From positions 3,904,001 through 3,968,000 of the forward strand of contig OZ255842.1 in the NCBI GenBank assembly GCA_965277805.1: a stretch of 64,000 nt of DNA, written 5' to 3'. Under the pieces are notes generated by a model, which was not told the origin of the DNA, made no database searches, and was given only the letters and a program-made list of their open reading frames with translations. Every line of letters begins with the position of its first letter. The stretch's first letter is position 1. This DNA comes from Candidatus Lustribacter sp. (GTDB taxonomy: Bacteria > Vulcanimicrobiota > Vulcanimicrobiia > Vulcanimicrobiales > Vulcanimicrobiaceae). The translations under genes were made by a program, and so were the position numbers. Positions 1,235 through 58,352 of this stretch are shown here, piece by piece.

Positions 1235-2142
1235 GGCGGAACGAGCGTCCCGAATCGTGCCAGCACGTCGTGCGCGGCCGTGTACGGATCGCCGCCGTCC
1301 GGCAGCGCCGACACCGCCTCCTTGACCCGCCGTTCGAGCGCGCCGACGGCCAGTGCGCGCACGCGATGCTCGTAGGCCGCGCGCCGTTTGTGCGCGATCT
1401 CGCCCGACGAGCGCAGGTAGGCGTCGTGTTCCGCGATTGCGTTCCACAGCGCGTCGACGCCTTGGCCGTCGATCGCTTGGGTCGCAACGAGCTGCGGCAC
1501 CCAGCCGGCGTACTCGATCATCTCCATCATCGAGCGGATCTCGCGTTCCAGCTGCGGCGCCATCGGGTGATCGCGTTTGTTCACGACGAACACGTCGGCG
1601 ATCTCGAGGATCCCGGCCTTGAGCATCTGCACGCTATCGCCCGAACCGGGCTGCAGCGCCACGAGGATCGTGTCCGCGATCTCGGCGATCTCGATTTCCG
1701 ACTGGCCGACGCCGACCGTCTCGATCAGCACCACGTCGAAGCCGAACGCATCCATCAGCGTCGCCGCATCGGCCGTCGCGCCCGCGACGCCGCCCAGGTG
1801 GCCACGGCTGGCCATCGATCGGATGAACACACCTTCGTCAACGAAATGCTCGGTCAGCCGGATTCGATCGCCGAGCAGGGCGCCGTGCGAAAACGGCGAG
1901 CTCGGATCGACCGAGATGACGCCGACGGTCTTGTTCCGGCGGCGCAGGCGAACGACCAGCGACGCGGTTAGCGTCGACTTGCCGACGCCGGGCGGTCCGG
2001 TCAGGCCGATCGTCATCGCCCGGCCGGCCCGCTCGAACACGGCCCGGATCAACGGCTCGCCCAGGCCGGACTCGCAGCGCGTGATCGCGCGGGCGAGCGC
2101 GCGCTGCTCGCCGCGGTCGAACGCCGCCAACAGATCCTCCAT
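1231..2142 (-). CDS. meaB: Methylmalonyl-CoA mutase-associated GTPase MeaB/ArgK
   Basis: Motifs GLTGPPGVGKST, VDPSSPFSHGALLGDRIR, FIRSMASRGHLGG, ETVGVGQSE and NKxD. Confidence 0.93.
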   Translation of the reverse strand: MEDLLAAFDRGEQRALARAITRCESGLGEPLIRAVFERAGRAMTIGLTGPPGVGKSTLTASLVVRLRRRNKTVGVISVDPSSPFSHGALLGDRIRLTEHFVDEGVFIRSMASRGHLGGVAGATADAATLMDAFGFDVVLIETVGVGQSEIEIAEIADTILVALQPGSGDSVQMLKAGILEIADVFVVNKRDHPMAPQLEREIRSMMEMIEYAGWVPQLVATQAIDGQGVDALWNAIAEHDAYLRSSGEIAHKRRAAYEHRVRALAVGALERRVKEAVSALPDGGDPYTAAHDVLARFGTLVPP

Positions 2143-5990: not shown

Positions 5991-6617
5991 ATGGCTGACA
6001 ACGTAACGATGACGATCCCGATTGTGACCGTATCGGATCTCGCGCTGCCCCGTTGGATGTCGCCGTTTGCTCGCCAGCTCTTTGCTATCCCCACCCACAT
6101 GACGGCGCAAGAGCGTCTGATGCTCATGCAGCTCGCACTGAATGCCGGCGATGGTTTCACGGCGCTCGAAATCGGCAGCTATTTGGGCGCGAGCACGGCT
6201 TTTCTCGGCTTCTCCGCGCTGCACAAAAACGGTACCGTTCACGCCGTCGATCCATGGACGAACAACGCCATGGGCTCCGAAGGCGAACGCGACACGTTTG
6301 GAGAGTTTCGCCGCAACACGGCGTCCTTCGAGCACTACATCGTGCCGCATCGCGGAACGTCGGCTGAAATTCACGCCCGCGAAACCGTGATCCCGTGTAA
6401 CCTGCTGTTCATCGACGGCGATCACAGCTACGACGCGGTCGCGGCCGATTTGCGCATGTGGCTGCCGAGCTTGAAACCGGGCGGCACGCTCGCGATGCAT
6501 GACATTGATTCGCCGCCCGTCGCGCAAGCGTTCAACGAAATCGCACCCTCGCTCGCGCTCGAGGGACCGCCACAGATGACGGACCGCTTGCTATTCTGCA
6601 AACTCGCATCCGCCTGA
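5991..6617 (+). CDS. Class I SAM-dependent methyltransferase (Methyltransf_24-like)
   Basis: Motifs LEIGSYLGAST, AVDPW, LFIDGDHSYDAV and LKPGGTLAMHD. Confidence 0.88.
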   Translation: MADNVTMTIPIVTVSDLALPRWMSPFARQLFAIPTHMTAQERLMLMQLALNAGDGFTALEIGSYLGASTAFLGFSALHKNGTVHAVDPWTNNAMGSEGERDTFGEFRRNTASFEHYIVPHRGTSAEIHARETVIPCNLLFIDGDHSYDAVAADLRMWLPSLKPGGTLAMHDIDSPPVAQAFNEIAPSLALEGPPQMTDRLLFCKLASA

Positions 6618-6621
6618 GCGA

Positions 6622-7986
6622 ATGATCCTCGACTGCTTCACGTTCTTCAATGAGTTTGACGTGCTCGAACTGCGTTTGCGCACGCTCGGCGACGTCGTCG
6701 ACACGTTCGTGATCTGTGAAGCGCCGTTCACGTTCAGGGGTAATCCGAAGCCGCTGTACTTTGCTGATGAAGCGGCGCGGTTCGCACCCTGGAGCGATCG
6801 CTTGCGGCTGATCGCGCTGCCCGGACCTCCGGCCGCGATTGCGTGGGACAACGAAGCCGCGCAACGTTCGTTTCTCGCGACCGCACTCACGGACTGCGCG
6901 CCCGGCGACGTTATTCTCATCGGCGACGTCGACGAGATTCCCGATCCGCGACTGCTCGCGACGCCACCCGCCGCCGGCCGCATCGTCACGCACCGGATGG
7001 TCCTGATGCGCGGCTACGCAAACCGCGCCGACTTCGGCGGTGCGCCATCGTGGTACGGAACGCGCGCGCTGCGCGCCGGCGATCTCGCCGCCTTCGGAAC
7101 ATTGAATGACGTGCGCTATCATCCGTTCGCCGATACCGACGTCGTCAGCGGCGGTTGGCACTTTTCGTCCTTTGGCGGCGGCGAAGTCATGGAGCGGAAG
7201 CTGCGCTCGTTTTCGCACGCCGAACTAGATATTCGCTACCTGCGCGATCGCCGGCGCCTCGACGTCCATTACGAAGGCGCCGGCGGAGAAGCGGGCACCG
7301 TCGAGGTTTCCCTCGACACGCTGCCCGCGCCGCTACGCGAAGATGCTCGCTGGGCGCCTTATCTCTGGCGTCAAAGCAGCGCGCTCGCGCCCGAACACAC
7401 CGCGCTGCTCGAACACGCCCACGGCTGCCTCGCGTACGTCCCCGACGACGCAACCGGGGTGGCCGTGCTCGCCGCGCAGCCCGGCGTGTGGAGCGAGGCC
7501 GCCGCGGAGCGATTCGGCGCGGGCTTCCGCGGCGTTTTCACCGATGCGGCTGACCTCGCCGCGGCGGAGCCGGCGTGGATCGTCGTCGACGGTCTCGAAC
7601 GCCAGCCCGAAACGGCGCTCACTCGCTTACGCCGGACGGGTGCGACGGTGATTGCTTTCGCCGCCAACGCGCGCTCGCTCGAGCCGATGACGGAAGCGCT
7701 CGCCGGGCGGCCGCTTCCACCGGGCCGCGCTCTCGGGCGCGCCGAGTATGTGGCGGAAATGCGCGCTGCCGGGTTCGACGTGGGACCGGCCGACCGCGTA
7801 CCGACCCGCCTGATGCCCTGGACGATGCCGGCCCCCGGCAGCACCGCGCTCTACCGGATCTCGGTCGGCGCGTTCCGCTTTCCCGAGCTCCAGGCCGAGG
7901 CGCTGGCCGACTTCCAGACCAACGCCTTCATCTTTACCCTGAACCCAAGCCCCGCGTTTGACCCCTCTGCCTCAGCCGTGGTATGA
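6622..7986 (+). CDS. GT17-like (beta-1,4-GlcNAc transferase family) glycosyltransferase fused to a degenerate methyltransferase-like domain
   Basis: MILDCFTFFNEFDVLELRL, TFRGNPKPLYF, GDVDEIP, GGWHFS and KLRSFSH are typical of GT17. Confidence 0.8.
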   Translation: MILDCFTFFNEFDVLELRLRTLGDVVDTFVICEAPFTFRGNPKPLYFADEAARFAPWSDRLRLIALPGPPAAIAWDNEAAQRSFLATALTDCAPGDVILIGDVDEIPDPRLLATPPAAGRIVTHRMVLMRGYANRADFGGAPSWYGTRALRAGDLAAFGTLNDVRYHPFADTDVVSGGWHFSSFGGGEVMERKLRSFSHAELDIRYLRDRRRLDVHYEGAGGEAGTVEVSLDTLPAPLREDARWAPYLWRQSSALAPEHTALLEHAHGCLAYVPDDATGVAVLAAQPGVWSEAAAERFGAGFRGVFTDAADLAAAEPAWIVVDGLERQPETALTRLRRTGATVIAFAANARSLEPMTEALAGRPLPPGRALGRAEYVAEMRAAGFDVGPADRVPTRLMPWTMPAPGSTALYRISVGAFRFPELQAEALADFQTNAFIFTLNPSPAFDPSASAVV

Positions 7987-35918: not shown

Positions 35919-36080
35919 TGACCACAGGTTCCTCCCGAGGCGCGGACCCTCACTTGGCCCACTGGACAACGCTCCCCGGGCGGCCCTTCATCCACACCAT
36001 CCACAGGCGCGTGTGCAGGATAACCTTCCCATAAGGCAGCCCGAAGCAACCCGGCGGCCTTGCAGGCGGTCCAAGCCAGC

Positions 36081-37196
36081 GTGTCCGCCTACGATGTCTT
36101 AGTCGTGGGCGCCGGCCTTGCAGGCAGCACGATCGCCGAGCGGTGTGCAAGCGAGTTCGGCGCGAACGTCTTGCTGATCGACCGACGCCCCCACCTGGCC
36201 GGTAACTGCCACGACCCCGTCGACGCGGACGGCTTGCAGTACCATCAGTACGGCCCCCACGTCTTCCACACCAACTCCGAGGACGTCATCGACTACCTGG
36301 GCGCGTTCACGGCCTGGCGCCCCTACGAGCATCGCGTGCTGGCGAACGTCGACGGACGGCTGCTGCCGATCCCGATCAACCGGACGACGATCAACGCGCT
36401 CTACGGCCTCTCGCTCGATGAAGCCGGCGTAACGGCGTTTCTCGAGCGGGTCGCCGAGCCGTGCAGCGCGATCCGCACCTCGGAGGACGTGATCGTCTCG
36501 CGTATCGGACGCGAACTCTACGAGCGTTTCTTCGCCGGCTATACGCGCAAGCATTGGGGCCTCGACCCCTCGGCACTCGACGCGAGCGTCTGCGGGCGCA
36601 TCCCGACCCGCACCAACACCGACGACCGCTACTTCACCGACCGTTTTCAGCTGATGCCGGCAGACGGGTATACCGCGATGGTGGAGCGCATGACGAACCA
36701 CCCGCGCATCGAGCGCGTGCTCGGCGTCGACTACGTCGAGATCGCCGACCGCGCGCATTTCCGTCATGTCGTGTTCACCGGGCCGATCGACGCGTATTTC
36801 GAACACCGCTTCGGCAAGCTCCCATATCGCTCGCTGCGCTTCGAATTCGAGACGCACGATGTGGAGCGGTATCAGAACGCCGGCTGCATCAACGAACCGT
36901 CGGAAGACGTGCCGTACTTACGCACGACGGAATATAAGCACCTCACCGGGCAGCGTCATGCGAAGACGATCATCTCGCGTGAGTATCCGAGCGACGAAGG
37001 CGAGCCGTACTATCCGATCCCCGCGCCCGAAAGCCGCGAGCAGTATCGCAAGTACGCGCTGCTCGCGCAACGCACGCGCGGCGTGACGTTCGTCGGCCGG
37101 CTAGCGGAGTATCGCTACTACAACATGGATCAGGCGGTGGCGTCGGCGTTGCGTACGGCCGAGGATCTGGTCGGAGTCGTGCGCGCCGCGTCTTAG
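36081..37196 (+). CDS. glf: UDP-galactopyranose mutase
   Basis: VGAGLAG, HQYGPHVFHT, GYTRKHWG, LPYRSL, PYYP and GRLAEYRYYNMDQ. Confidence 0.94.
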   Translation: MSAYDVLVVGAGLAGSTIAERCASEFGANVLLIDRRPHLAGNCHDPVDADGLQYHQYGPHVFHTNSEDVIDYLGAFTAWRPYEHRVLANVDGRLLPIPINRTTINALYGLSLDEAGVTAFLERVAEPCSAIRTSEDVIVSRIGRELYERFFAGYTRKHWGLDPSALDASVCGRIPTRTNTDDRYFTDRFQLMPADGYTAMVERMTNHPRIERVLGVDYVEIADRAHFRHVVFTGPIDAYFEHRFGKLPYRSLRFEFETHDVERYQNAGCINEPSEDVPYLRTTEYKHLTGQRHAKTIISREYPSDEGEPYYPIPAPESREQYRKYALLAQRTRGVTFVGRLAEYRYYNMDQAVASALRTAEDLVGVVRAAS

Positions 37197-43563: not shown

Positions 43564-44976
43564 TCAGGCGTCGGGAACGCCCAACGCGAGGAGCGGCTCG
43601 CCGAGCTCGACGGCCCGGTTGCGGCCGCCTTCTTTGGCGTGATAGAGCGCGCGGTCGGCAACGGCCATGAGATCGCCCGCGCTGGTGCCGGCCGCGTTGC
43701 GCGTCGCGCTGACCCCGACGCTGATCGACACGAGCGGGTGCGCAGCCCCGGAACCGGACGGTATTGCGGCTGCATAGACGGCCGCGCGCATGCGTTCGGC
43801 GACAACGAGCGCGCCCGCCAGATCGACGTCGGGCAAGATCACGGCCATCTCTTCGCCGCCGATGCGTGCGACCAGATCCAGCGCGCGCGTGGCGTTCTTC
43901 AGCAACGCGCCGGCGATCGTTCGCAAGCAATCGTCGCCGCCTTGATGACCGAACGTATCGTTGTACGCCTTGAAGTTATCGACGTCGATCATCAACAGCG
44001 CCAGCGGCTGCGAGTCGCGCGCACAATCGCGCAGCATGTCGCTGAAACGCTGATCGAAGCTGCGGCGATTCGCGAGATTGGTCAGCACGTCGGTGAGCGA
44101 TTCGTTGCGCAGGCGTTCCGCCGTCACCGCGAGCTGTGCGTAGATCGTCGCCGTTTGGAACAGCAGCACGCAAAGCACCGCGCTGGCCGCCAGCACGATG
44201 CTCACGCGTGAGGCATACCAGCCGGCGGTGAACTGGCGCGCGAAATGCTGCAGCGTAACGTCGGCAAACATCGACAGACACGCGACGGCGAGCCACAGAT
44301 CGAGCAGCGAGCGAAAGCGGCTGGTCCGGTACGCGAGCACCATCGCCGCGAGCGCGGCCAAGCTCATCACCGTGCTGATCACGTTGAAGAGCCGCGTGAA
44401 CGCACCGTTGTTCGAGAGCACCGGAAGGCCGTCGATCCAGATCAGCGGGGGCACGGTCAGCGCGATGAAAGCGATTGCGCCCCACAGCATTCGGGATTGG
44501 AAGCGGCGGAAGGCGTCGACCGAAAACTCACTCTGATCCTGCCCGCGCGCGATGTAATACGCGATCGCGGAGCAGACGAAGAGGGCATGCCACTCGACCC
44601 ATAACCAACCCGAGGTTTGCGAATCGGCGGACACCCACTGGATGAGTTGGGGCCACAGGCCGCGGTAGAACAACAAATAGGGTATCATCGCCACCGCGGT
44701 TAGCTCATAACCGAGCGCGAGGATGGTGAGCGGGACCGACCGCGTTACGCGCGACTGCGCCCACAGCAGCAACGACGTGATCGCGATGGAAGAAATCGAG
44801 AGCGCCATGACGATCGCAAAGATCGGATACGACGTTCCGAGCGGACGCGAGATTTCGGGAATGACCAGCAGCACGCCGGCCACCAGCACGGCCGCCACAA
44901 CGAGCGCGCTCCGCCGATCGGCGCCCGTCGACGGTGCCTCGGCGAGATCCACCATTGCGATGCTGAGACCGTTCAC
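43564..44976 (-). CDS. Membrane (MASE4-like) GGDEF diguanylate cyclase
   Basis: Multi-TM N-terminus. TDVLTNLANRR, DVDNFKAYNDTFGHQGGD, I-site RALD and active-site GGEEM. Confidence 0.9.
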   Translation of the reverse strand: MNGLSIAMVDLAEAPSTGADRRSALVVAAVLVAGVLLVIPEISRPLGTSYPIFAIVMALSISSIAITSLLLWAQSRVTRSVPLTILALGYELTAVAMIPYLLFYRGLWPQLIQWVSADSQTSGWLWVEWHALFVCSAIAYYIARGQDQSEFSVDAFRRFQSRMLWGAIAFIALTVPPLIWIDGLPVLSNNGAFTRLFNVISTVMSLAALAAMVLAYRTSRFRSLLDLWLAVACLSMFADVTLQHFARQFTAGWYASRVSIVLAASAVLCVLLFQTATIYAQLAVTAERLRNESLTDVLTNLANRRSFDQRFSDMLRDCARDSQPLALLMIDVDNFKAYNDTFGHQGGDDCLRTIAGALLKNATRALDLVARIGGEEMAVILPDVDLAGALVVAERMRAAVYAAAIPSGSGAAHPLVSISVGVSATRNAAGTSAGDLMAVADRALYHAKEGGRNRAVELGEPLLALGVPDA

Positions 44977-50506: not shown

Positions 50507-51289
50507 TCATAATGCCTTCGCGGACTTGTCGGCGGTCGCGGCAAGCGTTAAGTTACCGGCGGCGAGGAACGCGCGGGCCGCGCTCGAGTAGCCGCGCTGG
50601 ATGATCGCGGGATCGTCGGCACTCTCGGCCAGCAGCAGATACATCTTCCCGGCCAGGCGCCGAAATTTGTTCCCGATGTCGGGGTTGGCGACGGTTAACG
50701 CCAGAACGGCAGCGCGCTCATAGGCTTGTGCCGCGTCTTCGAACGCACGCCGCTCTTCGGCGACCTCCGCGACTTGCACGAAGCTCGCGAGATTCGTGTT
50801 TTCCGGCGTTGCCGCCGGCCGCGGCGGCGCCTGCGCAACGACGCCGGAGGAATCGTCGGCGAGGAGCCGGCGCCAGCGCAGCTGCTGGCGCACGCTCGCA
50901 GTGAGCGGCGCGGGCTCAAAGGGCTTCGTTAGAAAATCTTGCACGCCGGCCGCGAGTGCGGCGATTTTGTCTTCGGCCTTCGAGCGGCTGGTCAGCATCA
51001 CGATCGGGATTGCGGCCGTGAACGGATCGGCTTTGAGCCGGATCGCCGCGTCGTGGCCGTCCAGCTCGGGCATCATCCAATCGATGATGATCAAGTCGGG
51101 GCGGAACTCGAGCGCGCGCGCGTGGCCGACCAAGCCGTTCGGTGCCTCGATCACGGCAAAGCCCTCATTTTCGAGGACGTGCCTCACGAGCGTCCGCACC
51201 CCGTCGTCGTCGTCGACGATCAGGATACGTCCCGTATCGGTCGACTCCGCGTCGCGGACGAGTTGCTGGACGGTCGCGGTCTCGTTCAT
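50507..51289 (-). CDS. Response regulator (REC plus helical/TPR-like C-terminus)
   Basis: ILIVDDD, IIDWMMPELDG, MLTS and DFLTKPF. The ATG overlaps the GT2 stop (ATGA). Confidence 0.88.
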   Translation of the reverse strand: MNETATVQQLVRDAESTDTGRILIVDDDDGVRTLVRHVLENEGFAVIEAPNGLVGHARALEFRPDLIIIDWMMPELDGHDAAIRLKADPFTAAIPIVMLTSRSKAEDKIAALAAGVQDFLTKPFEPAPLTASVRQQLRWRRLLADDSSGVVAQAPPRPAATPENTNLASFVQVAEVAEERRAFEDAAQAYERAAVLALTVANPDIGNKFRRLAGKMYLLLAESADDPAIIQRGYSSAARAFLAAGNLTLAATADKSAKAL

Positions 51290-53166
51290 AGCGGTGCGGT
51301 CCTTTGCGCAGCCATCGTTTTGGGAGCGATGCGCGAGATGCCGTGCTGCGTCTTCTCCCAATAGAACGGCTTCGTGAAGAGTTGCCCGAGAGCTTTGTAC
51401 GCTGCGATCGAGTGCAGCAGCCAGTACAGCGGGTTGAGCAGCGCGTACGGCATCAGCGCGTAGTTCTTCCGCAGATAGATCGCAATCATGTTGAGGTAGA
51501 TGCCGAGAAAATTCCCGATCAGAAGATTCGCCAGTGCCAAGTAGAGCACCGCATCGGGAAAGAGCGGTTCGACGACGTGCGAGCGCGTTAACAGCCAGAA
51601 GACGAAGAGCGCCCACAGGGGCGGCGATGCGAGGAACGTCAGCGGCGTGCCGCCGATGAACAAGTTGAAGGCCAGAAAATTCTTCAGCCCGATCGTGCGG
51701 ATCAGCGCGACCGGGTGGCGCCAGTAGACGAGAAACGTCTGCATGTAGCCCTTGACCCACCGCGAACGCTGGCGAATCCAGTTGCCGAGGTCGGCGTTGG
51801 CCTCCTCGAACGTCGTCGAGTTGATGAAGCCAACGCGAAATTTTTCGGCCGACGCGCGAATCCCGAGATCGGCGTCCTCGGTCGTGTTGAACGGATCCCA
51901 GCCGCCGAGCGAGCGCAGCTTCGCCACATCGAAGTGGTTGCTCGTGCCGCCCAGTGGGATCGGTAAATTCAAGCGGTCGAGCCCGGGAATGAGGTAGTCG
52001 AACCAATACGAGTATTCGAGGGTGAACATCCGCGTGAGCACGTTCTCGGTAACGTTGAAGTAGTTGAGCGCCGCTTGAAAGCACACGTAATTGGACGGGC
52101 TCTTGCGAAACGCGCAGACCGCCATCTTGAGCTGCGAGGCCTCGGGAATGTCTTCCGCATCATAGATCACGAGATACTCGCCGCGCGCGAACGTCAGGCC
52201 GTAGTTGCAGGCCTTCGGTTTGGTGCGCGGCTGCCGATTGGGCACGACGATGAAACGCCAGTTGGCCGGGGGCCGCGCGTCCTTGGCGGCCTGGAGCGTC
52301 GCGACGTCGTCTTCTTCGAGCAGCAGCATCACATCGAGCTTGTGCTGCGGGTAATCGAGATTCTTGAGCCCGGCGATGAGCTGGCCGACCACTTCAGGTT
52401 CTTTGTAGACCGGAACCAGCACGGTATACACCGGCAGATCCTCGTCGCGCAGCGCCGCGATATCACCGGCCGAAATCGGCTGCGTAATCTCGTTCTGAGC
52501 GCCGGCGATGCTCAGCGCGACCTTGAACGCAACGCTGGCGAGAAAGAAAACCTGCAGCACGCCGATGATCGCAATCAGGAGCGACCGGACGTCGAAGTAC
52601 GCCCAGGCGACGAGCGCGAAGAGGATCGCGCCCAGCACGACGATCTGCGGGATCGTCAGTACGCGCCGCGCACTCTGTTCGGGGTTGCGGTAGAAGTTGC
52701 TCATCACCGCGCCCTCGATCATCGTGTCGCGAAACGTGCGCGATGCGACGAGGGTGAGGTCGAGATCGCTGATCAGCAACTCGGCGATGGTTGCGGCGCC
52801 GAACCGGTCGCGCGCGAAGGCGTGCGCGATTTCATCCCGCGGATGTGAGGTCGCGATGACGAGAAGCTCGCCGTCGAACGAGAACGGCATGAACTCGTAG
52901 CGGATCACTTCCTCGTACGTCATCTTGCCGATCAGCTCGATGTCGACGTTCGTGCGAAGCCGTTCGATGTCGAGCACCAGCGGCAGACCGTAATGTTCGG
53001 CCAGGGTTTCGTAGAGCATGCGGCGCGTGACGACGCCCATCGAGGCGAGGACCCAGCTCAATTCGCCGCCGCTCTGCGCCTGGATCGACCGCGCCGCCAG
53101 GACCGTTTCGGGCGGCACCTGGGCAGCTTCGATCAACTGCGCCGAAAGGGCATCGATCTCGATCAC
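51286..53166 (-). CDS. Processive GT2 glycosyltransferase with an N-terminal MshEN/GSPII_N-like domain
   Basis: VLVPVYKE, TKPKACN, YDAED, GGTSNHF, TEDADLG and RQRSRWVKG, with TM helices on both sides. The N-terminus has MshEN-like spacing ending LAEHYGLP. Confidence 0.9.
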   Translation of the reverse strand: MIEIDALSAQLIEAAQVPPETVLAARSIQAQSGGELSWVLASMGVVTRRMLYETLAEHYGLPLVLDIERLRTNVDIELIGKMTYEEVIRYEFMPFSFDGELLVIATSHPRDEIAHAFARDRFGAATIAELLISDLDLTLVASRTFRDTMIEGAVMSNFYRNPEQSARRVLTIPQIVVLGAILFALVAWAYFDVRSLLIAIIGVLQVFFLASVAFKVALSIAGAQNEITQPISAGDIAALRDEDLPVYTVLVPVYKEPEVVGQLIAGLKNLDYPQHKLDVMLLLEEDDVATLQAAKDARPPANWRFIVVPNRQPRTKPKACNYGLTFARGEYLVIYDAEDIPEASQLKMAVCAFRKSPSNYVCFQAALNYFNVTENVLTRMFTLEYSYWFDYLIPGLDRLNLPIPLGGTSNHFDVAKLRSLGGWDPFNTTEDADLGIRASAEKFRVGFINSTTFEEANADLGNWIRQRSRWVKGYMQTFLVYWRHPVALIRTIGLKNFLAFNLFIGGTPLTFLASPPLWALFVFWLLTRSHVVEPLFPDAVLYLALANLLIGNFLGIYLNMIAIYLRKNYALMPYALLNPLYWLLHSIAAYKALGQLFTKPFYWEKTQHGISRIAPKTMAAQRTAPL

Positions 53167-54941
53167 GTGCTGATCCTTCCCGTGAGCCTGCGCGCGCAAT
53201 ACAAGCCACCCAACACGATGCTCGCTAAGAGCACGAGCGCGACCGCGAGGCGGATGCGCGACCAAATCGCGGCTGCGGTGAGATCGCCCGGATAGCGCAT
53301 GCGCAATTTCTCACCGACATCGTACGTCGTGACGCCGCGCTCGTCGACGATGGAAACGTTCGCGACCTGCGTGGTGAGCTGTGCGGCGCTCACGCCTTCG
53401 AGCAACGCGATGCTCGCCGGCGCACCGTGATAGGTGACGGCGAGCAACGGCGTGCCTGCCGCCTCGCCGAGCTGCAACAGGCCGACGTTCGTATCGGCAA
53501 CGGCGCCGAACACGGTCGCTCCGTCGGTTGGATTGACGGCCGCAAAGACCGGTTCGGCGGCGTTCACCGCGAGATGCTCGCCCGCGAGCGCGCTCGGGGC
53601 CGCAAACACGATGGCATAGTTGTATCCGGCCGGAACGGCGGCGGAATACGGCCGGACGTCGAGCTGCGCGATCGCAGCGTTCATTTTGCCGATTTCGCCC
53701 ATGATGTGGAAGGCCGCAGGTGTGAAACCGGGGCCCACCAGCACGATGACACGTCCGCTGAGCGCCGTGATGAACGACTCGATCGAAGCCGGCCGGCGGT
53801 CGACATCGCTCCACGAAAACGATGACGAATCGAGCAGCGACGCCGTGAGCGGGGCGGCGCCCGCGCAGGCCGCGGGCGGGATCTCGGTGGCAACGAGCAC
53901 GCGCACGTTGTTCGACGGCCCGACGATCGACTGCGGGACGGCGACGTCGAATGACTGCGTCACCCCATCGCTGCTGAGGGCGCGCGCGCCGGCGAGTACG
54001 CCGTTGACGAGCACCTGCAGCGTGCCGTTCGCCCCGGGAGGCAAGGTCGAATGCGCGACGGAGACGTGGACCGCCAGATGATGCGGCACCCCGCCCGTAA
54101 TGCTGCCGGCCAGCGGAACGTCGAACGCAATGTCACCGCGACCGCCGGCCGACCCCAGATGCTGGCGCAGATCACCGAAGTTCACGCTCGCGCTGCGGCG
54201 TTCGGGTGACTCCCCTTGGGGTGAGGGCAGCGCGGCGAGCGCCTCCGGCGACAAGCGCAAGACGTCGCCGTTTCGCGAGGTGCGGCCGCCGGTCGCGAGC
54301 ACGAGCGCGCGACCCGTCCGCGGCGGCTCGGCCACGAGCGTCGCATCCACGCGGTGCCACGGCTCGAGGCGGTCGATGCGGTACGGTACCGCGGCGAGCT
54401 CCGGATCGCCGCTCCCGCTCACCGCGACGCGGCTGCGATAGTCACGGAAAAATGCTTCCGCCGTGCCGCCGTCGACCGTTCGCACGGCGAGCGCGCTATC
54501 TCGCCCGACGCGCAGAAAAAGCTTGCGTGACGACCCGCTCGCGCACGGATTGCCGGCCGCCCGCAGAGCGCCCGAAACGGTGATCGAGAAGAGTCGCGCA
54601 CCGGCAGGCGGTACGGGCAACGGAATGGTGAGACGCGCGTCGCGTCCGATCTCCCGGAGCGTTCGCGTGTAGTCCGTGACCCCGTTGACCGCGACCGAAA
54701 TCGTGCTCGACGGATCGGCGTCCTCGGAGACATGCAGTTCCAAGTGCAACGCAGCCGCCTGCAACGATGCGTAACGCGGCAGATCGAACGTGACGCTCGG
54801 CGCAACGCCGGCGACCGTCACGCCGTCGGTGTACCCGAGCGTCGTGAGCGGGATGTCCACCCCGGCGGCGGCTGCCGGAAGCGCGGCACTCGCGACGATC
54901 GCGGCGGCGGCGAGCGCGGCGAAAACGCGCACGGCGTTCAC
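53163..54941 (-). CDS. BcsB-like periplasmic synthase accessory subunit
   Basis: Signal peptide, two repeated units (IPLTTLG...SSTISVAVNG and VNFGDL...GTLQVLVNG) and a single C-terminal TM helix. Coupled to the GT2 gene. Confidence 0.68.
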   Translation of the reverse strand: MNAVRVFAALAAAAIVASAALPAAAAGVDIPLTTLGYTDGVTVAGVAPSVTFDLPRYASLQAAALHLELHVSEDADPSSTISVAVNGVTDYTRTLREIGRDARLTIPLPVPPAGARLFSITVSGALRAAGNPCASGSSRKLFLRVGRDSALAVRTVDGGTAEAFFRDYRSRVAVSGSGDPELAAVPYRIDRLEPWHRVDATLVAEPPRTGRALVLATGGRTSRNGDVLRLSPEALAALPSPQGESPERRSASVNFGDLRQHLGSAGGRGDIAFDVPLAGSITGGVPHHLAVHVSVAHSTLPPGANGTLQVLVNGVLAGARALSSDGVTQSFDVAVPQSIVGPSNNVRVLVATEIPPAACAGAAPLTASLLDSSSFSWSDVDRRPASIESFITALSGRVIVLVGPGFTPAAFHIMGEIGKMNAAIAQLDVRPYSAAVPAGYNYAIVFAAPSALAGEHLAVNAAEPVFAAVNPTDGATVFGAVADTNVGLLQLGEAAGTPLLAVTYHGAPASIALLEGVSAAQLTTQVANVSIVDERGVTTYDVGEKLRMRYPGDLTAAAIWSRIRLAVALVLLASIVLGGLYCARRLTGRIST

Positions 54942-56425
54942 AGAGCACCATCGCGTTCGAACACGATGTAGTCGAGCTGCCGGAAGACTTCGTGGAAGCG
55001 CGGCAGACGGCCGAACTCCGCCCCGGCATAGAGCGCGTAGATCGTGTCGTCGGGGCGCCGCGCGATGACCACGAAACGCACGAACGCGGACGGGTTGGAG
55101 AGCGCACTTGCGTACTCGTATTGGTACGGCAGTATGAAACGCCCCGGCGAACCGAGCGTGTAGACGAGCGGGTAGAGTAGGGCATCGTCGATGAGGATTG
55201 GGCCGTCGGATCCAAGTTTGGTGGCGAGTTCACGGAACGGCACGAGGTTCGCGTCGCCCGTACTGCGCCCGATCAGCGCGTTGCCGAAACCCCGCTCGTC
55301 GGCACTCGGTGAGACGAACGGTGCGAAAAACGACGCGACGAGGCTCAGCACGAGCGTTATCGTCAGCCACCGCGTCGGCTTGATCGCGTCGAGTGAAAAC
55401 AGCAGCACCAGCACGAACAGCGCCAGCAGCGTGATCGTCTCACGATACAGGCCGCCGAAAATCGCGGCGAGCATGAAGACGACGGGGCTCAGGTACACGA
55501 CGGTCGCCGGGAGCGCATAGGCGAATCGGCCGCCGCGCAAGGTGACCACGCCGACGAAATACGGCAACGTGACGGGTATCGAAAGCAGCAGGGTTCCGGC
55601 TGCGAGGCGCAACGTTTGCAGCGGATCGCCGGCAGCCGACAAAAGTTCCGGCGTCACCGGGAACGTCCGGAAGAACGAGCCGCGGCCGTGCGCGTATGCC
55701 AGGGGATCGCCGAGGAAGACCCAGTTGACGTACGACCACGCCGCAGCGAAGAAGACCGTCGGCACGGCGAGCGTCAAGGCAACGCTGATCGCCTGCGCGC
55801 GCGACTTCCGCCAGAGCGGAATCGCCGCCGCCGGCACGATGGCGATCAAAAGCGCAGCGCTGCGAAAATCGACGAAGAAGGTCAGGCCGAGCAGCGTGCT
55901 GCCGGCAAAGAGATAGAGCGAGTAATCATCGCGCAAGAAGCGGATGATGAAGTGCACGCTTGCGGCCAGAAGCAACGCGAGAATCAGCGTGCTGAAATCC
56001 TCCACCGTGAGGTAGAGAAAAATCGGCGATGCGAGCACGTAGGCCTGGGCAGTGTAACCGAGCAGGCGATCGGAGATCGACGTACGCAGGTACGCGAGAA
56101 TTCCGGTTACCGCGATCCCGGAAATGACGGCTTGACCGACCAACGGGGTCGGAAAGAGCAATTGGAGCAAAAAGGTCAGCGGCGGATAGATGAAGCCGAC
56201 GTTGACGAGTCGCGGCGGCAGCCCATGGAGCGCGAGCGCTCCCTTTTCGGCGAAAAAGACGAGGCTGGAGCTGAGAAAGCCCGCACGCTCGAGCACCGTG
56301 ACGGCCAGGAAGTAGGCGATGGATAACAGCGCAGCCACGAGGACGAACGCCCCCAGGCGCACACCTCGCCCGGATATCTGATCGCGCACCCGTGCAGCAT
56401 AGCCGAGTCGCGAGCGAGCGTCCAT
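54938..56425 (-). CDS. Multi-pass membrane protein, GT-C/PMT-like or polysaccharide-processing
   Basis: About 11-12 hydrophobic segments. GFIYPPL loop, NWVFLGDPL and a soluble C-terminus with ILIDD. Confidence 0.6.
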   Translation of the reverse strand: MDARSRLGYAARVRDQISGRGVRLGAFVLVAALLSIAYFLAVTVLERAGFLSSSLVFFAEKGALALHGLPPRLVNVGFIYPPLTFLLQLLFPTPLVGQAVISGIAVTGILAYLRTSISDRLLGYTAQAYVLASPIFLYLTVEDFSTLILALLLAASVHFIIRFLRDDYSLYLFAGSTLLGLTFFVDFRSAALLIAIVPAAAIPLWRKSRAQAISVALTLAVPTVFFAAAWSYVNWVFLGDPLAYAHGRGSFFRTFPVTPELLSAAGDPLQTLRLAAGTLLLSIPVTLPYFVGVVTLRGGRFAYALPATVVYLSPVVFMLAAIFGGLYRETITLLALFVLVLLFSLDAIKPTRWLTITLVLSLVASFFAPFVSPSADERGFGNALIGRSTGDANLVPFRELATKLGSDGPILIDDALLYPLVYTLGSPGRFILPYQYEYASALSNPSAFVRFVVIARRPDDTIYALYAGAEFGRLPRFHEVFRQLDYIVFERDGAL

Positions 56426-56517
56426 GCAAGAAGGTAAAGATCGGAGCCAAATCCCGCTTCGTGTCCGGAATCGGGGCGACAGACCGCGTGCAAACGCCTA
56501 TACTTGACCGCGTTGTG

Positions 56518-57333
56518 ATGTCTTCGATGCTTCGCCTGCCCGCGATTGCCTTGGCAGCTGCATGTCTTGGGTTCGCCCCGCAAGCGGCACGCGCCGACGA
56601 TCCGCCGACGTTCGTGTCGATCGGACCGCTCTACTACAACTCGACGACGTATATCGATAAGAGCGGCCGGGTCCAGCCATCCGGCTGCGATTTCCAAAAA
56701 ACCGGGGAAAGCATCTACGCGCAGCAGCGGCTGAGCGCGGCGGATTCGCTTCGTTTGAGCACGGAATACGACGACGTTCGCTGCGGAGGTCCGGCGACGC
56801 AGGGCCTGACCGACGTCGAAGTCGATTATTTGCACGGCGTGAGCGGAGCAACGCATGCGACGCAGTTCAGCGTCGAGGGTTCGCTGGTCATACCCGCCGG
56901 TTACTCGATCGCGGCGAATCCGCGATTGGGCTTGGGCCGTCCCGCGGCCGAACTCGGCGCGGTGTATTACGCCACGTTCAAAGCGGGTTCAAATTACGGT
57001 TACGTCACGTCGGGCATCAACGTGCGCGGATATACGGGGTACCCGGCGCCGCAATTGCTGACGAACGTCACGGTCGGCTTGAATCTTTCGAGCCGTCTGC
57101 TCGTGTATGAATCCTTCTACGGAACGACCCACCTCGGTGCCGGCGGCACACTCACCAACATCGGGCTGAATCCAACGGTGAATGCAAGTTACGATGCGTA
57201 TCAGCTTGCGGAGAACGTGGCCTTTGCGCTCACGCCGCACACCTCGTTGGCGTTGACCTACCAGTCGCTCGTCGGCGGCTGGAACACGGGCATCGGATCG
57301 ACGCTGCAAGCGGGGGTATGGCTGCGCTTCTAG
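56518..57333 (+). CDS. Putative outer-membrane beta-barrel protein
   Basis: Signal peptide ending ARA, amphipathic Tyr/Gly/Thr-rich strands, and C-terminal LQAGVWLRF beta-signal. Confidence 0.65.
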   Translation: MSSMLRLPAIALAAACLGFAPQAARADDPPTFVSIGPLYYNSTTYIDKSGRVQPSGCDFQKTGESIYAQQRLSAADSLRLSTEYDDVRCGGPATQGLTDVEVDYLHGVSGATHATQFSVEGSLVIPAGYSIAANPRLGLGRPAAELGAVYYATFKAGSNYGYVTSGINVRGYTGYPAPQLLTNVTVGLNLSSRLLVYESFYGTTHLGAGGTLTNIGLNPTVNASYDAYQLAENVAFALTPHTSLALTYQSLVGGWNTGIGSTLQAGVWLRF

Positions 57334-58352
57334 CACGCGCACTGCTCTGCGCGTTTGCTCTCGTGTTCGCCGGAGCGGTCGCGCGCGCAGATCCCCTCGA
57401 ACGCGCCTACACCAATGCCGTGCGCAAGATGGCGCACGGCGCCGGCGTCGCGCGCCCCGACGGCTATACGTGGGCATACGATTCGGCCCAGCTGCTGCGC
57501 TTCGCCGCCGTCGACCGCGATCTGACCCGCTACCTCGAATTGCGCGGCGCGATCGTCAAGCGCTTCGTGCTCGCCGATCCGGCCGATGCCGAGGCGCGTG
57601 ACGACGTCGCTTGGCGCGTGCGTGACGGCGCGTTTCCCGAGGCGAGCGGCACGACCGAGGCACTAGCGTTGGCCGATGCGCTCATCGTGGGCGCGAACGC
57701 TTTTAATCGCGAGGACGATCGCACGCTTGCCCGCAGCATCGCGGGCGCCTACATGCGCCACGCCACGACCGAGGGCGGGGTGTGGTTCATCCGCAACTAC
57801 TACAATTTTTCCACGCACGCGTACGCCAATAATTCGTTTCTCGTCGACTATTTGCCCGACGTTCTCGCGCGAGCGGGAGAAACCGACGGCGCGGAGCGCT
57901 CGGACGCGCTGCTCGATCGCGCGATGGGCCCGGCGGGCCTTTTCTACGAACTGGTTCAACCCGAGATCGACACCGCATTTCCCGGTGCAGGTTTGGCTTT
58001 TTTCTCACCCAACGCCGTTTCATCGATCACGAACGCGTGCAATTTGGCGCTCTATGCAACACAGGGGCGGCCGGCGCTCGCGCGACGCGTCCTCGCCTTC
58101 GGGGTCGCGCGAGCGAACGATCTCAAACGATTCTACGATGTTCGCACGGGCGTGCCGCGCAGCGGCGAGAACGCCGGAACGCCGGCCTACGCATGCCTCA
58201 CCCGGCTCGCCGTTCGCTTGGGTGATGAGCGTGCGCGCCGCAAGCTCGAACCCAATCTGCGGGCCAACGCCGCGACCCAGCTCGCCAACGGGACCGCGGG
58301 CCCGGATACGGCGACGGCGGTCGTGTTCGCGTTACGCGGCAGCGACCGCTAA
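57318..58352 (+). CDS. Exported six-hairpin / GH8-like glycoside hydrolase
   Basis: Signal peptide. VAWR...ASGTTEALALADAL...LARSI parallels the GH8 AWR...ATD(G/A)DxxIAxAL pattern. Confidence 0.5.
   Translation: MAALLARALLCAFALVFAGAVARADPLERAYTNAVRKMAHGAGVARPDGYTWAYDSAQLLRFAAVDRDLTRYLELRGAIVKRFVLADPADAEARDDVAWRVRDGAFPEASGTTEALALADALIVGANAFNREDDRTLARSIAGAYMRHATTEGGVWFIRNYYNFSTHAYANNSFLVDYLPDVLARAGETDGAERSDALLDRAMGPAGLFYELVQPEIDTAFPGAGLAFFSPNAVSSITNACNLALYATQGRPALARRVLAFGVARANDLKRFYDVRTGVPRSGENAGTPAYACLTRLAVRLGDERARRKLEPNLRANAATQLANGTAGPDTATAVVFALRGSDR

What the first reader, a model, noticed from the sequence alone, without database searches (positions are those of the whole stretch)
50507..58352. 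Candidate undescribed synthase-dependent exopolysaccharide system (six genes, divergent)
Seen in sequence: four minus-strand genes chained by 4-nt start/stop overlaps (GT-C-like membrane protein, BcsB-like protein, MshEN-like/GT2 with D,D,D,QxxRW, response regulator). They share a ~90-nt divergent gap with two overlapping exported proteins (Phe-terminated beta-barrel, GH8-like enzyme). Established: synthase, accessory subunit, GH8 and outer-membrane pore is the layout of cellulose (Bcs) systems. Listeria Pss uses a GT2, a BcsB-like subunit and the GH8 PssZ, and NfrB-type GT2s carry MshEN domains. Inference: this combination matches none of those exactly, since it has no PilZ domain, no BcsC TPR-barrel, an added GT-C-like protein and a coupled REC protein. 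It may make a decorated surface glycan of unknown chemistry.
Basis: partly seen in the sequence, partly recalled or inferred. Interest (0 to 1): 0.8.

Follow-up and report, generated by a model that had tools for sequence, protein, structure and literature searches.

The report
Xag-type exopolysaccharide synthase gene cluster
This is a real six-gene cluster for making and exporting a surface polysaccharide; its core belongs to the widespread but biochemically unstudied Xag/Sfz type, here with a different trimming enzyme and probably a different on/off switch.

Summary
All six genes, the three 4-nt overlaps, the 89-nt divergent gap and the motifs are present. All six fold or family calls are supported:
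- BcsA-like GT2 with an N-terminal MshEN-like domain
- full-length BcsB fold
- GT-C fold
- GH8 fold, with Listeria PssZ as the top match
- outer-membrane barrel, on weaker evidence
- REC domain

The system is not undescribed. Close GT2 homologues are named XagB. The trio BcsB-like / GT2 / GT-C-like is syntenic across phyla: the GT-C-like gene is in 70 of 80 fetched loci and the BcsB-like gene in 50 of 80. By gene order and size, this matches xagABCD of Xanthomonas and sfz1-5 of iron oxidisers (PMC3609779, PMC4643136, PMC8250860). Those clusters are known genetically, but their polymer is uncharacterised.

Features particular to this lineage (relatives named Vulcanimicrobiaceae):
- a PssZ-like GH8 where other lineages carry GH113 or GH5
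- key c-di-GMP-binding positions of the MshEN motif lost in 52 of 52 close homologues
- a translationally coupled REC protein without a DNA-binding domain

Verdict: a new variant of a known, understudied kind. Interest 0.5.

The parts
54938..56425 (-). GT-C-fold polytopic membrane protein (495 aa). It is the first gene of the minus-strand operon. By synteny it is the counterpart of XagC/Sfz3.
   Evidence: It has no Pfam or NCBIfam hit. About 10-11 hydrophobic segments are present. An HMM built from 32 homologues of other loci finds it at E 4.6e-69 over its full length. The AF2 model has pLDDT 86.0 and pTM 0.85. Foldseek PDB ranks 1-42 are all GT-C enzymes: ArnT 5f15 (E 9.3e-6, TM 0.52/0.48), DPY19, AftA, PglB, STT3 and ALG12. 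The weakest sequence homologue, P0209 (E 6.8e-7), carries PMT and PMT_2. A homologous gene is in 70 of 80 loci, usually directly downstream of the GT2.
53163..54941 (-). BcsB-like periplasmic subunit (592 aa) with a signal-like N-terminus and a C-terminal TM anchor.
   Evidence: Pfam BcsB matches at 5.1e-8, covering residues 29-155 only. The family profile A4 (29 sequences, this one first) matches E. coli BcsB chains 9fmt, 6yg8 and 7l2z over profile positions 47-657 of 670, at E 3e-26. An HMM built without the window sequence finds it at E 2.3e-59. It covers HMM positions 14-193 and 306-660, so about 110 positions are missing here. Hydrophobic ends are shown. A homologous gene is in 50 of 80 loci, usually directly upstream of the GT2.
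51286..53166 (-). Processive GT2 synthase (626 aa, XagB-type). It has an N-terminal MshEN-like domain with degenerate c-di-GMP motifs, two TM segments, a BcsA-like catalytic domain and C-terminal TM segments. There is no PilZ domain.
   Evidence: Pfam gives Glyco_tranf_2_3 at 1e-19. MshEN is at 1.2e-4 (22.4 bits, below the 23.1 cut-off), and there is no PilZ. NCBIfam CelA scores 54.9 bits against a cut-off of 699, and the MshE-related c-di-GMP motif scores 18.4 against 38. Family profile A1 matches PilF/MshE N-domains (E 1e-27 to 1e-9) and BcsA (E 2e-14, positions 181-553). Homologues at 84-95% identity are named XagB. The motifs are shown. The motif positions read ALS..A and ELS..G where the MshEN consensus has RLG.
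50507..51289 (-). Single-domain response regulator (260 aa). It has a REC domain with an intact phospho-acceptor set, followed by a conserved ~110-aa helical C-terminal domain of no known family. There is no DNA-binding domain.
   Evidence: Pfam Response_reg matches at 2e-26 over residues 22-133, and nothing else is found. The ATGA overlap with the GT2 stop codon is shown. D27/D28, D70 and K122-P123 are conserved in 20 aligned relatives. The C-terminal motif NPDLANKL.RLAGKMYL.LAE is conserved. Most orthologues carry an extra ~90-150-aa N-terminal domain that is absent here.
56426..56514 (.). Divergent intergenic region (89 nt) with one promoter-like site at 56476-56504 (+).
   Evidence: One site was found in 8.3 kb against 1.1 expected, so this is a placement argument only.
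56515..57333 (+). Outer-membrane beta-barrel protein (272 aa from GTG 56515, or ATG 56518). It is the putative exit pore.
   Evidence: It has no Pfam hit, and 0 of 16 family members hit a named porin family. An HMM of 15 homologues from other loci finds it at E 2.3e-39. Family profile A5 matches the COG4313 outer-membrane channel 4rl8_A at E 5.7e-4 and OmpT 6ehe at 0.021. It has a signal-like N-terminus, a C-terminal Phe and no TM helix. Homologues are in 17 of 80 loci. All 17 are from diderm phyla, and none is from the Actinomycetota or Chloroflexota loci.
57318..58352 (+). Exported GH8-fold glycanase (344 aa), PssZ/BcsZ-like, from a family that has no Pfam model.
   Evidence: 0 of 22 family members hit any Pfam family. 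Profile A2 finds only 3ren_A ('Glycosyl hydrolase, family 8') in the PDB, at E 2.5e-4. The AF2 model has pLDDT 89.1 and pTM 0.86. Foldseek PDB ranks 1-47 are all GH8: PssZ 6r2m at E 3e-10 (TM 0.66/0.73), then 3ren, CMCax 1wzz and BcsZ. It has a signal-like N-terminus. Homologues lie next to the GT2 in 3 of 80 loci: L008, L012 and L027.

Best explanation
The locus is a complete synthase-dependent exopolysaccharide system of the Xag/Sfz type. The source bacterium's nearest named relatives are Vulcanimicrobiaceae (Vulcanimicrobiota, formerly Eremiobacterota).

Supported by homology, fold and synteny:
- The XagB-type GT2 is a BcsA-like enzyme.
- The BcsB-like protein is a membrane-anchored periplasmic partner.
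- A GT-C-fold membrane protein is the most constant companion of the synthase.
- In diderms a small outer-membrane barrel is added.
- A glycanase accompanies the set, and its family differs by lineage (GH8 here, GH113 in Proteobacteria, GH5 in Bacteroidota).

Inferred:
- The GT2 polymerises a sugar chain from a nucleotide sugar and threads it through its own membrane channel, by analogy with BcsA.
- The polymer has a beta-1,4-linked hexose or hexosamine backbone of the mannan, glucomannan or ManNAc type.
- The GT-C protein modifies or hands on the nascent chain on the periplasmic face, possibly with a polyprenyl-phosphate sugar donor.
- The barrel is the exit pore, and the GH8 trims or releases the chain.

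Inferred for this lineage only: control by c-di-GMP through the MshEN domain has been lost or weakened. Control instead comes through the translationally coupled REC protein, phosphorylated by a kinase encoded elsewhere.

The confidence of 0.75 applies to membership of the Xag/Sfz-type system. The backbone guess, the role of the GT-C protein and the regulatory swap are each held with much lower confidence.
For: Identity of the parts:
- GT2.
- BcsB fold.
- GT-C fold.
- GH8 fold.
- Barrel.
- REC.

Operon structure: three 4-nt overlaps and a shared 89-nt divergent gap.

Synteny:
- In the 80 loci kept (42-56% identity), iterated HMMs find the GT-C-like gene in 70, the BcsB-like gene in 50, the barrel in 17 and this GH8-like gene in 3.
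- A GH5 gene is in 22 loci and a GH113 gene in 4.

Close relatives: homologues of the GT2, GH8-like and GT-C-like proteins share longest-contig lengths. Four lengths are shared by all three (2900357, 209550, 18726, 9204) and 15 more by two of them. This is an indirect sign that the genes sit on the same contig.

Link to Xag/Sfz:
- XagB names.
- The order BcsB / GT2 / ~510-aa membrane protein / ~360-aa hydrolase / ~280-aa barrel in L056, L059 and L071. L072 has the same genes up to the hydrolase but no barrel. This matches the order and sizes of sfz1-5 (PMC8250860, passages) and CDS9-12 (PMC4643136, passages).

Backbone guess:
- The GH113 neighbour matches only endo-beta-1,4-mannanases in the PDB, 7 of 7 hits.
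- The GH5 neighbour is closest to endoglucanases, including a hit described as a bifunctional endomannanase/endoglucanase.
- The best structural match of the GH8 is PssZ.
- Xanthomonas biofilm that needs xag is dispersed by a beta-1,4-mannanase (PMC3528676, passages).
- An NTP_transferase of ~500 aa lies nearby in 3 loci.

Regulatory swap:
- Among GT2 homologues at least 60% identical to the window protein, 0 of 52 keep Arg/Lys in motif II and 0 of 52 keep all four key positions. Among more distant homologues 60 of 134 keep all four, and 15 had no N-terminus to read.
- Among the 71 loci with a readable motif, a two-component gene lies within 4.5 kb in 0 of 16 with intact motifs and in 28 of 55 with degenerate motifs (Fisher p 9e-5, not corrected for relatedness).
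Against: - No product chemistry is known for any member. The hydrolase families point to different backbones (glucan, mannan or ManNAc), and the guess may be wrong.
- The GT-C-like family has no invariant acidic residue in the first periplasmic loop. Only P134 is near-invariant, and the E/D-K/R position is acidic in only some members. It may therefore not be a transferase.
- No polyprenyl-phosphate-sugar synthase gene recurs in the neighbourhoods.
- The barrel rests on weak profile hits (E 5.7e-4) and was not modelled.
- Only the ATGA overlap ties the REC gene to the system. In the 80 loci a REC gene is directly adjacent to the cassette in only 2 (L011, L073). The L073 protein is 24% identical to the window's REC protein and does not share its C-terminal domain.
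- The window encodes a MASE4-GGDEF cyclase about 5.5 kb away, so the organism does use c-di-GMP.
- Most of the 28 loci that combine a degenerate motif with a two-component gene are Bacteroidota. That leaves about four independent lineages.
- No direct sequence comparison with the Xanthomonas XagA/C/D or Mariprofundus Sfz proteins was possible.
- Kato 2015 states that the iron oxidisers have no xagA homologue. Whether XagA is BcsB-like therefore remains open.
Confidence: 0.75

Rival explanations
1. It is a divergent cellulose (Bcs) system. The GT2 makes beta-1,4-glucan, the BcsB-like protein is BcsB, the GH8 is BcsZ, and the small barrel stands in for BcsC.
For: - BcsA is the closest solved GT2 (E 2e-14).
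- The BcsB fold is full length.
- CMCax and BcsZ are among the top GH8 matches.
- The GH5 neighbours in Bacteroidota are closest to endoglucanases.
Against: - NCBIfam cellulose-synthase models score far below their cut-offs: 54.9 against 699 and 38 against 992. BcsB scores 20 against 972.
- There is no PilZ domain and no TPR/BcsC.
- The constant partner is a GT-C protein, which to my recollection Bcs operons lack.
- Proteobacterial members carry GH113, whose solved relatives are all beta-mannanases.
- The iron oxidisers hold separate bcsABZC genes beside the xag-like cassette (PMC4643136, passage from a table).
Confidence: 0.1
2. It is a Pss/Nfr-like system that makes a beta-1,4-ManNAc-based polymer. 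Listeria Pss has a GT2, a BcsB-like PssD and the GH8 PssZ. E. coli Nfr has an MshEN-bearing GT2.
For: - PssZ is the best structural match of the GH8-like protein (E 3e-10).
- MshEN is fused to a GT2, as in NfrB (one search lists weak NfrB hits).
- An NfrB cluster that includes a BcsB homologue is reported in Achromobacter (PMC8669472, passage).
Against: - NfrB models score 15 and 23 bits against cut-offs of 1170 and 537. They match only the MshEN-like part, and the domain order is reversed: N-terminal here, C-terminal region of the NfrB models.
- No UDP-GlcNAc 2-epimerase is in the cluster or among the recurrent neighbours.
- No NfrA-like TPR barrel is present.
Confidence: 0.12
3. Only the core (GT-C-like, BcsB-like, GT2) is a functional unit. 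The REC gene, and perhaps the barrel/GH8 pair, are neighbours with unrelated roles.
For: - The window-type REC protein was not found next to the GT2 in any of the 80 loci. Adjacent REC genes in L011 and L073 are of other kinds.
- REC orthologues are widespread, and their context could not be checked.
- The GH8-like gene is adjacent in only 3 of 80 loci and the barrel in 17 of 80.
Against: - The ATGA overlap links the REC start to the GT2 stop.
- The barrel and GH8 genes share the divergent gap and overlap each other. Both recur beside the GT2 in distant phyla (L008 Synergistaceae, L027 Chroococcidiopsis).
- Their homologues share contig lengths with GT2 homologues in close relatives.
- Barrels occur only in diderm loci.
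Confidence: 0.15

Closest known systems
xagABCD of Xanthomonas and the sfz1-6 / 'xag-like' cassette of stalk-forming iron oxidisers
   Same: - Close homologues of the synthase are named XagB.
- Sfz2 is described with an N-terminal T2SS-E-like domain, a GT2 domain and the QxxRW/TED motifs. Sfz1 is BcsB-like with an N-terminal signal and a C-terminal TM segment. Sfz3 is ~500 aa and of unknown function (PMC8250860, passages).
- The same gene order and sizes occur in the proteobacterial loci L056, L059 and L071, and up to the hydrolase in L072.
- The polymer is uncharacterised in all cases (PMC3528676).
   Different: - The hydrolase here has a GH8 fold. The proteobacterial loci carry GH113, and the paper predicts GH10 for Sfz4.
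- The barrel and hydrolase are transcribed divergently here instead of following the GT-C gene.
- The REC gene is translationally coupled, and the MshEN motif is degenerate.
- There are no CotH or Sfz6-like genes.
- Direct sequence comparison with XagA/C/D or the Sfz proteins was not done.
Bacterial cellulose synthase (BcsA-BcsB-BcsZ-BcsC)
   Same: It shares a processive GT2 with D,D,D,QxxRW motifs and a membrane channel region that aligns to BcsA. It also shares the BcsB fold, a GH8 periplasmic glycanase and an outer-membrane exit.
   Different: There is no PilZ domain, and the MshEN-like domain sits at the N-terminus instead. There is no TPR-barrel BcsC, and a ~270-aa barrel takes its place. 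A GT-C protein is added. All curated Bcs models score far below their cut-offs.
Listeria Pss system (PssZ) and E. coli Nfr system (NfrB)
   Same: PssZ is the best structural match of the hydrolase. As in NfrB, a GT2 is fused to an MshEN-type domain (PMC8669472).
   Different: The domain order is the reverse of NfrB. There is no NfrA, no epimerase and no PssE-type receptor. A GT-C partner is present, and the MshEN motifs are degenerate.
GT-C glycosyltransferases of the ArnT / PMT_2 type
   Same: The overall fold matches, with ArnT as the top hit. There is weak sequence linkage to PMT/PMT_2. The consensus G..YPPL lies before the second membrane helix.
   Different: It is not recognised by Pfam, and only 2 of 33 members reach PMT_2 weakly. 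No invariant catalytic acid is found in the first loop. It sits in an operon with a synthase rather than with a lipid-linked donor pathway.

Membership tests
Xag/Sfz-type synthase-dependent EPS system | GT2 synthase with an N-terminal T2SSE_N/MshEN-like domain (XagB/Sfz2) | tested here: met
   Searches show the domains. Homologues at 84-95% identity are named 'glycosyltransferase XagB'. Sfz2 is described in PMC8250860.
Xag/Sfz-type synthase-dependent EPS system | BcsB-like gene directly upstream of the synthase (Sfz1/CDS9) | tested here: met
   There is a 4-nt overlap in the window. A BcsB-like gene is in 50 of 80 loci. The fold is shown.
Xag/Sfz-type synthase-dependent EPS system | ~500-aa polytopic membrane protein next to the synthase (XagC/Sfz3) | tested here: inconclusive
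   The family is present in 70 of 80 loci and the window protein is a member (E 4.6e-69). Equating it with XagC/Sfz3 rests on gene order and size only (PMC8250860 Table 2). No reference sequence was compared.
Xag/Sfz-type synthase-dependent EPS system | XagD/Sfz4-type glycoside hydrolase (GH113 in the proteobacterial loci) | tested here: not met
   The window protein has a GH8 fold. GH113 is found in 4 of 80 loci. It is a functional analogue, not a homologue.
Cellulose synthase (Bcs) | BcsA with a C-terminal PilZ domain that reaches the curated model scores | tested here: not met
   No PilZ is found. TIGR03030 scores 54.9 against 699.1, and NF008558 scores 38 against 992.
Cellulose synthase (Bcs) | BcsC (TPR plus 16-stranded barrel) | tested here: not met
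   No protein of the cluster has a TPR hit. The barrel protein is 272 aa.
MshEN c-di-GMP receptor domain | Two tandem 24-residue motifs RLGxx(L/V/I)(L/V/I)xxG...LxxxLxxQ (PMC5013675) | tested here: not met
   The window reads ALS...A...Q and ELS...G...H. Arg is missing from both motifs and Gly3 from both. The same loss occurs in 52 of 52 close homologues. Pfam and NCBIfam scores are below their cut-offs. Binding itself was not tested.
GT-C glycosyltransferase superfamily | GT-C membrane fold | tested here: met
   The model has pLDDT 86. Foldseek ranks 1-42 are all GT-C enzymes, though TM-scores are modest at 0.27-0.52.
GT-C glycosyltransferase superfamily | Conserved catalytic Asp/Glu in the first extracytoplasmic loop (recalled as the defining catalytic feature) | tested here: inconclusive
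   No acidic column reaches 60% in the N-terminal loop. An E/D-K/R pair and an upstream S-x-E/D are each present in some members only. The window has E60-K61.
Glycoside hydrolase family 8 | (alpha/alpha)6 barrel fold | tested here: met
   3ren_A is the only PDB sequence hit of the profile.
Glycoside hydrolase family 8 | Match to the family's sequence model and catalytic acid/base residues | tested here: inconclusive
   0 of 22 members hit any Pfam family. Candidate invariant acids are D55, E114, D181 and E216. They could not be mapped onto the GH8 catalytic residues because no residue-level structural alignment was available.
Response regulator receiver (REC) | Acidic pocket, phospho-acceptor Asp, conserved Thr/Ser and Lys | tested here: met
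   D27/D28, D70, T100 and K122-P123 are read from the sequence and alignment A6. Pfam gives 2e-26.
Outer-membrane beta-barrel (COG4313-like channel) | Barrel fold with a signal peptide and a C-terminal aromatic residue | tested here: inconclusive
   The profile hits 4rl8_A at E 5.7e-4. The signal-like N-terminus and terminal Phe are shown. No model was made.

The most novel reading that the evidence does not exclude
Xag-type systems form a major, cross-phylum class of synthase-dependent polysaccharide machines whose hallmark is an obligate GT-C-fold partner of the synthase. Their regulatory input is modular. Where the MshEN domain keeps its c-di-GMP motifs, the second messenger controls synthesis. 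Where the motifs have decayed (Vulcanimicrobiota, Bacteroidota and others), two-component phosphorylation has taken over. In this window that would work through a REC protein with a new helical output domain that docks on the degenerate MshEN domain of the synthase.
Probability: 0.2. Interest if true: 0.65.

Novelty: new variant of a known kind. Interest (0 to 1): 0.5.

Why it matters
The Xag/Sfz cassette is linked genetically to Xanthomonas biofilm and, by comparative genomics, to the twisted iron stalks of Zetaproteobacteria. Neither its polymer nor the roles of its 'hypothetical' subunits are known.

This work assigns folds to two subunits that Koeksoy 2021 left without a known domain or predicted function. 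The ~500-aa protein in the Sfz3/XagC position has a GT-C fold. The ~280-aa protein in the Sfz5 position looks like a COG4313-like outer-membrane barrel. The cassette occurs in at least 599 species-level genomes across more than ten phyla. Its hydrolase has been swapped at least three times, which narrows the guesses about the backbone.

The window adds a little-studied phylum and a candidate case of a c-di-GMP receptor domain being replaced by two-component control. All of this is testable with standard biochemistry. None of it overturns current views of synthase-dependent secretion.

Tried and rejected
Searches that found nothing or fell short:
- Single-sequence phmmer of the six proteins against the 80 loci under-detected partners: BcsB-like in 6 loci and barrel in 7. 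Iterated HMMs were needed.
- The GT-C-like profile found no solved structure by sequence (best E 0.29).
- Pfam scans of all members of the barrel, GT-C-like and GH8-like alignments gave almost nothing.
- The promoter and terminator scan gave no more sites than chance.
- Two literature searches for a unifying description returned nothing beyond the xag, sfz and Nfr papers. The terms were synthase-dependent/BcsB/MshEN/XagB/T2SSE_N/GT-C and xagABCD/xag cluster/xag operon/xag gene cluster/XagC/XagD. Subscription papers are not in the library. Tao et al. 2010 was not seen and is known only through citing papers.

Tools that were not available:
- The protein-atlas search does not hold the window's GT-C-like sequence. 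A stored homologue gave only feature-level leads to PMT_2/ArnT clusters.

Readings considered and rejected:
- A longer REC gene that starts upstream inside the GT2 gene. The close homologue P0210 starts at the same Met, and the extra N-terminal domain of other orthologues is a real domain missing here, not the overlapping frame.
- Absence of c-di-GMP signalling as the reason for the decayed motif. A GGDEF protein lies in the window.

Full report
**Observation**

- On the minus strand, four genes are joined by GTGA, GTGA and ATGA overlaps: 54938-56425 (495 aa), 53163-54941 (592 aa), 51286-53166 (626 aa) and 50507-51289 (260 aa).
- The ORF listing extends the GT2 and REC frames further upstream. 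The overlap starts agree with the N-termini of close homologues.
- An 89-nt gap separates the first gene from two plus-strand genes, 56515-57333 (272 aa) and 57318-58352 (344 aa), which overlap by 16 nt.
- The only sigma-70-like site in 8.3 kb lies in that gap. One site is what chance gives.
- The flanks are housekeeping genes. On one side are citrate synthase and his genes. On the other are ddl, murB, murC, murG and ftsW.

**What each protein is**

*GT2 synthase.*
- Pfam finds the GT2 domains. It finds an MshEN match just below the cut-off and no PilZ.
- A profile of 19 homologues matches PilF/MshE N-domains with its first ~120 positions. Positions 181-553 match BcsA.
- The D, DxD, TED and QRSRW motifs are invariant.

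*BcsB-like protein.*
- Pfam covers only residues 29-155.
- A profile of 29 family members aligns to E. coli BcsB end to end at E 3e-26.
- A profile built without the window sequence finds it at E 2.3e-59, although about 110 positions are missing.

*The 495-aa membrane protein.*
- It has no Pfam or NCBIfam hit.
- Its AlphaFold model (pLDDT 86) finds only GT-C enzymes in Foldseek ranks 1-42, led by ArnT.
- Its weakest sequence homologue carries PMT domains.

*The 344-aa protein.*
- It has no Pfam hit either, and 0 of 22 relatives have one.
- Its model (pLDDT 89) finds GH8 enzymes in ranks 1-47. Listeria PssZ is first, followed by CPF_2247, CMCax and BcsZ.
- The only PDB sequence hit of its profile is a GH8 entry.

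*The 272-aa protein.*
- It has a signal-like N-terminus, no TM helix and a terminal Phe.
- Its family profile weakly matches a COG4313 outer-membrane channel (E 5.7e-4).
- It was not modelled.

*The last gene.* It encodes a REC domain with a complete phospho-acceptor set. A conserved helical C-terminal domain of no known family follows, and there is no DNA-binding domain.

**Origin**

- The GT2 homologues named by a source at 63-64% identity are Candidatus Velthaea and Candidatus Aquilonibacter.
- A GT-C-like homologue is named Vulcanimicrobiaceae.
- These taxa belong to Vulcanimicrobiota.
- A barrel with a terminal Phe and a TonB_C protein in the window fit a diderm envelope.

**Co-occurrence**

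It returned 80 loci of 42-56% identity from Thermotogota, Aquificota, Chloroflexota, Bacteroidota, Cyanobacteriota, Actinomycetota, Gemmatimonadota, Acidobacteriota, Synergistota, Bacillota and Pseudomonadota.
- Iterated HMMs place a GT-C-like gene in 70 of 80 loci, usually directly after the GT2. A BcsB-like gene is in 50 of 80, usually directly before it. A barrel is in 17 of 80, all diderms. The window-type GH8 is in 3 of 80.
- Of the 10 loci without a GT-C-like gene, one ends about 120 bases after the GT2 (L050).
- No locus of the window's own clade was returned. As an indirect check, homologues of the GT2, GH8-like and GT-C-like proteins share longest-contig lengths. Four lengths are common to all three lists and 15 more to two lists.

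**Comparison with what is known**

- One source names the close GT2 homologues XagB.
- In Xanthomonas, xagABCD is needed for the raised biofilm of rpf mutants. It directs an 'uncharacterised polysaccharide', and a beta-1,4-mannanase disperses the biofilm (PMC3609779 and PMC3528676, passages read).
- Kato 2015 found a BcsB-like gene followed by xagB-, xagC- and xagD-like genes in stalk-forming iron oxidisers (PMC4643136, passages).
- Koeksoy 2021 named the genes sfz1-6 (PMC8250860, passages). Sfz1 is BcsB-like with a signal peptide and a C-terminal TM segment. Sfz2 has a T2SS-E-like N-domain plus a GT2 domain. Sfz3 is ~500 aa and of unknown function. Sfz4 is a 323-345-aa glycosyl hydrolase. Sfz5 is ~320 aa and of unknown function.
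- The proteobacterial loci L056, L059 and L071 show this order. After the BcsB-like gene and the GT2 come a GT-C-like gene of 502-532 aa and a GH113 gene of 350-371 aa. A barrel of 271-286 aa follows, then CotH. L072 has the genes up to GH113 but no barrel or CotH.
- The core of the finding is therefore the Xag/Sfz cassette.
- The equation GT-C-like = XagC/Sfz3 and barrel = Sfz5 is inferred from order and size. No reference sequence was available to test it.

**How it probably works**

- By homology to BcsA-BcsB, the GT2 polymerises and translocates the chain, and the BcsB-like subunit receives it in the periplasm.
- The hydrolase differs by lineage. It is GH8 here and in three loci, GH113 in 4 loci and GH5 in 22 loci.
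- The solved relatives of the GH113 neighbour are all endo-beta-1,4-mannanases.
- The nearest relatives of the GH5 neighbour are endoglucanases, including a hit described as a bifunctional endomannanase/endoglucanase.
- Together with the mannanase-sensitive Xanthomonas biofilm, this points to a beta-1,4-linked hexose or hexosamine backbone. This is a guess.
- The GT-C partner is the system's hallmark. Its fold suggests transfer from a polyprenyl-phosphate sugar onto the nascent chain.
- Against that, the family keeps no invariant acid in its first loop. No donor-synthase gene recurs nearby. A scaffold or hand-over role is therefore equally open.

**Regulation**

- The published MshEN motif is RLGxx(L/V/I)(L/V/I)xxG...LxxxLxxQ, present twice (PMC5013675, passages).
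- The window reads ALS...A and ELS...G.
- Among 52 homologues at least 60% identical to the window protein, none keeps Arg/Lys in motif II and none keeps all four key positions. Among 134 more distant homologues, 60 keep all four. Fifteen had no N-terminus to read.
- Across 71 loci with a readable motif, a two-component gene lies within 4.5 kb in 0 of 16 with intact motifs and in 28 of 55 with decayed motifs (p 9e-5).
- Most of the 28 are Bacteroidota, where a HisKA kinase gene sits directly before the BcsB-like gene. That leaves about four independent lineages.
- The window's REC gene overlaps the GT2 stop codon. I infer that phosphorylation has taken over from c-di-GMP here, but I hold this loosely. 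The organism does encode a GGDEF cyclase 5.5 kb away, and the context of the REC orthologues could not be checked.

**Verdict**

The system is not undescribed. It is a lineage-specific variant of the Xag/Sfz type, which is itself known only genetically.

To my searches, the following are not in print (within the held library only):
- the fold assignments for the proteins in the XagC/Sfz3 and Sfz5 positions
- the breadth of the cassette across phyla
- the hydrolase swaps
- the link between motif decay and two-component genes

Interest 0.5.

Noticed in passing
window 43564-44976 (-): A MASE4-GGDEF diguanylate cyclase (GGDEF 2.5e-46) lies about 5.5 kb beyond the REC gene. Citrate synthase and his genes separate them. 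The organism therefore has c-di-GMP signalling even though the synthase's MshEN motifs are decayed.
   Followed up: partly
window 50507-51289 (-); proteins P0211, P0213, P0214, P0221 and others: Most orthologues of the REC protein carry an extra, conserved ~90-150-aa N-terminal domain that the window protein and P0210 lack. The window's first residues resemble the first residues of P0211, as if the domain had been deleted in frame. The domain's nature (possibly GAF-like) was not tested.
   Followed up: partly
L014-L054 (Bacteroidota loci, e.g. L017 6-13 kb): In Mucilaginibacter, Pedobacter and Chitinophagaceae, the cassette is preceded on the same strand by a ~450-aa HisKA/HATPase kinase. Upstream on the opposite strand lies a GH5 enzyme, and often an acyl-ACP-type fatty acid desaturase.
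   Followed up: partly
L056 15104-18180, L059, L071: In three proteobacterial loci the barrel gene is followed by a CotH kinase-family protein (6.9e-60). In L056 and L059 a TLC ATP/ADP-transporter-like membrane protein comes next. This hints at phosphorylation of the secreted product or of a protein.
   Followed up: no
L009 3282-10098, L040 187-7216, L080 11431-14720: Some loci carry two GT-C-like paralogues. In the Gemmatimonadota loci they flank the BcsB-GT2 pair, and in a Chloroflexia locus they sit in tandem.
   Followed up: no
protein P0118 (750 aa): A GT2 homologue with a tandemly duplicated N-terminal MshEN-like segment.
   Followed up: no
window 53163-54941 (-): The window's BcsB-like protein lacks about 110 profile positions (194-305) that the other family members have. 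It is ~100 aa shorter than the family median of 699 aa.
   Followed up: partly
window 58349-58352: The GH8-like gene (+) and ddl (-) converge, and their ends overlap by 4 nt. The cluster abuts the ddl-murB-murC-murG-ftsW cell-wall block.
   Followed up: no
window 36024-37193 (+), 6580-7983 (+), 2-1633 (-): Elsewhere in the window there is a UDP-galactopyranose mutase (2e-73), a GT17-like glycosyltransferase beside a methyltransferase, and a 7TMR-DISM adenylate/guanylate cyclase. No link to the cluster was found.
   Followed up: no
L008, L056, L074: A ~500-aa NTP_transferase (nucleotidyl transferase, 3.8e-20) lies near the cassette in three unrelated loci. It may be a sugar-1-phosphate nucleotidyltransferase that supplies the donor. 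Its specificity was not determined.
   Followed up: no
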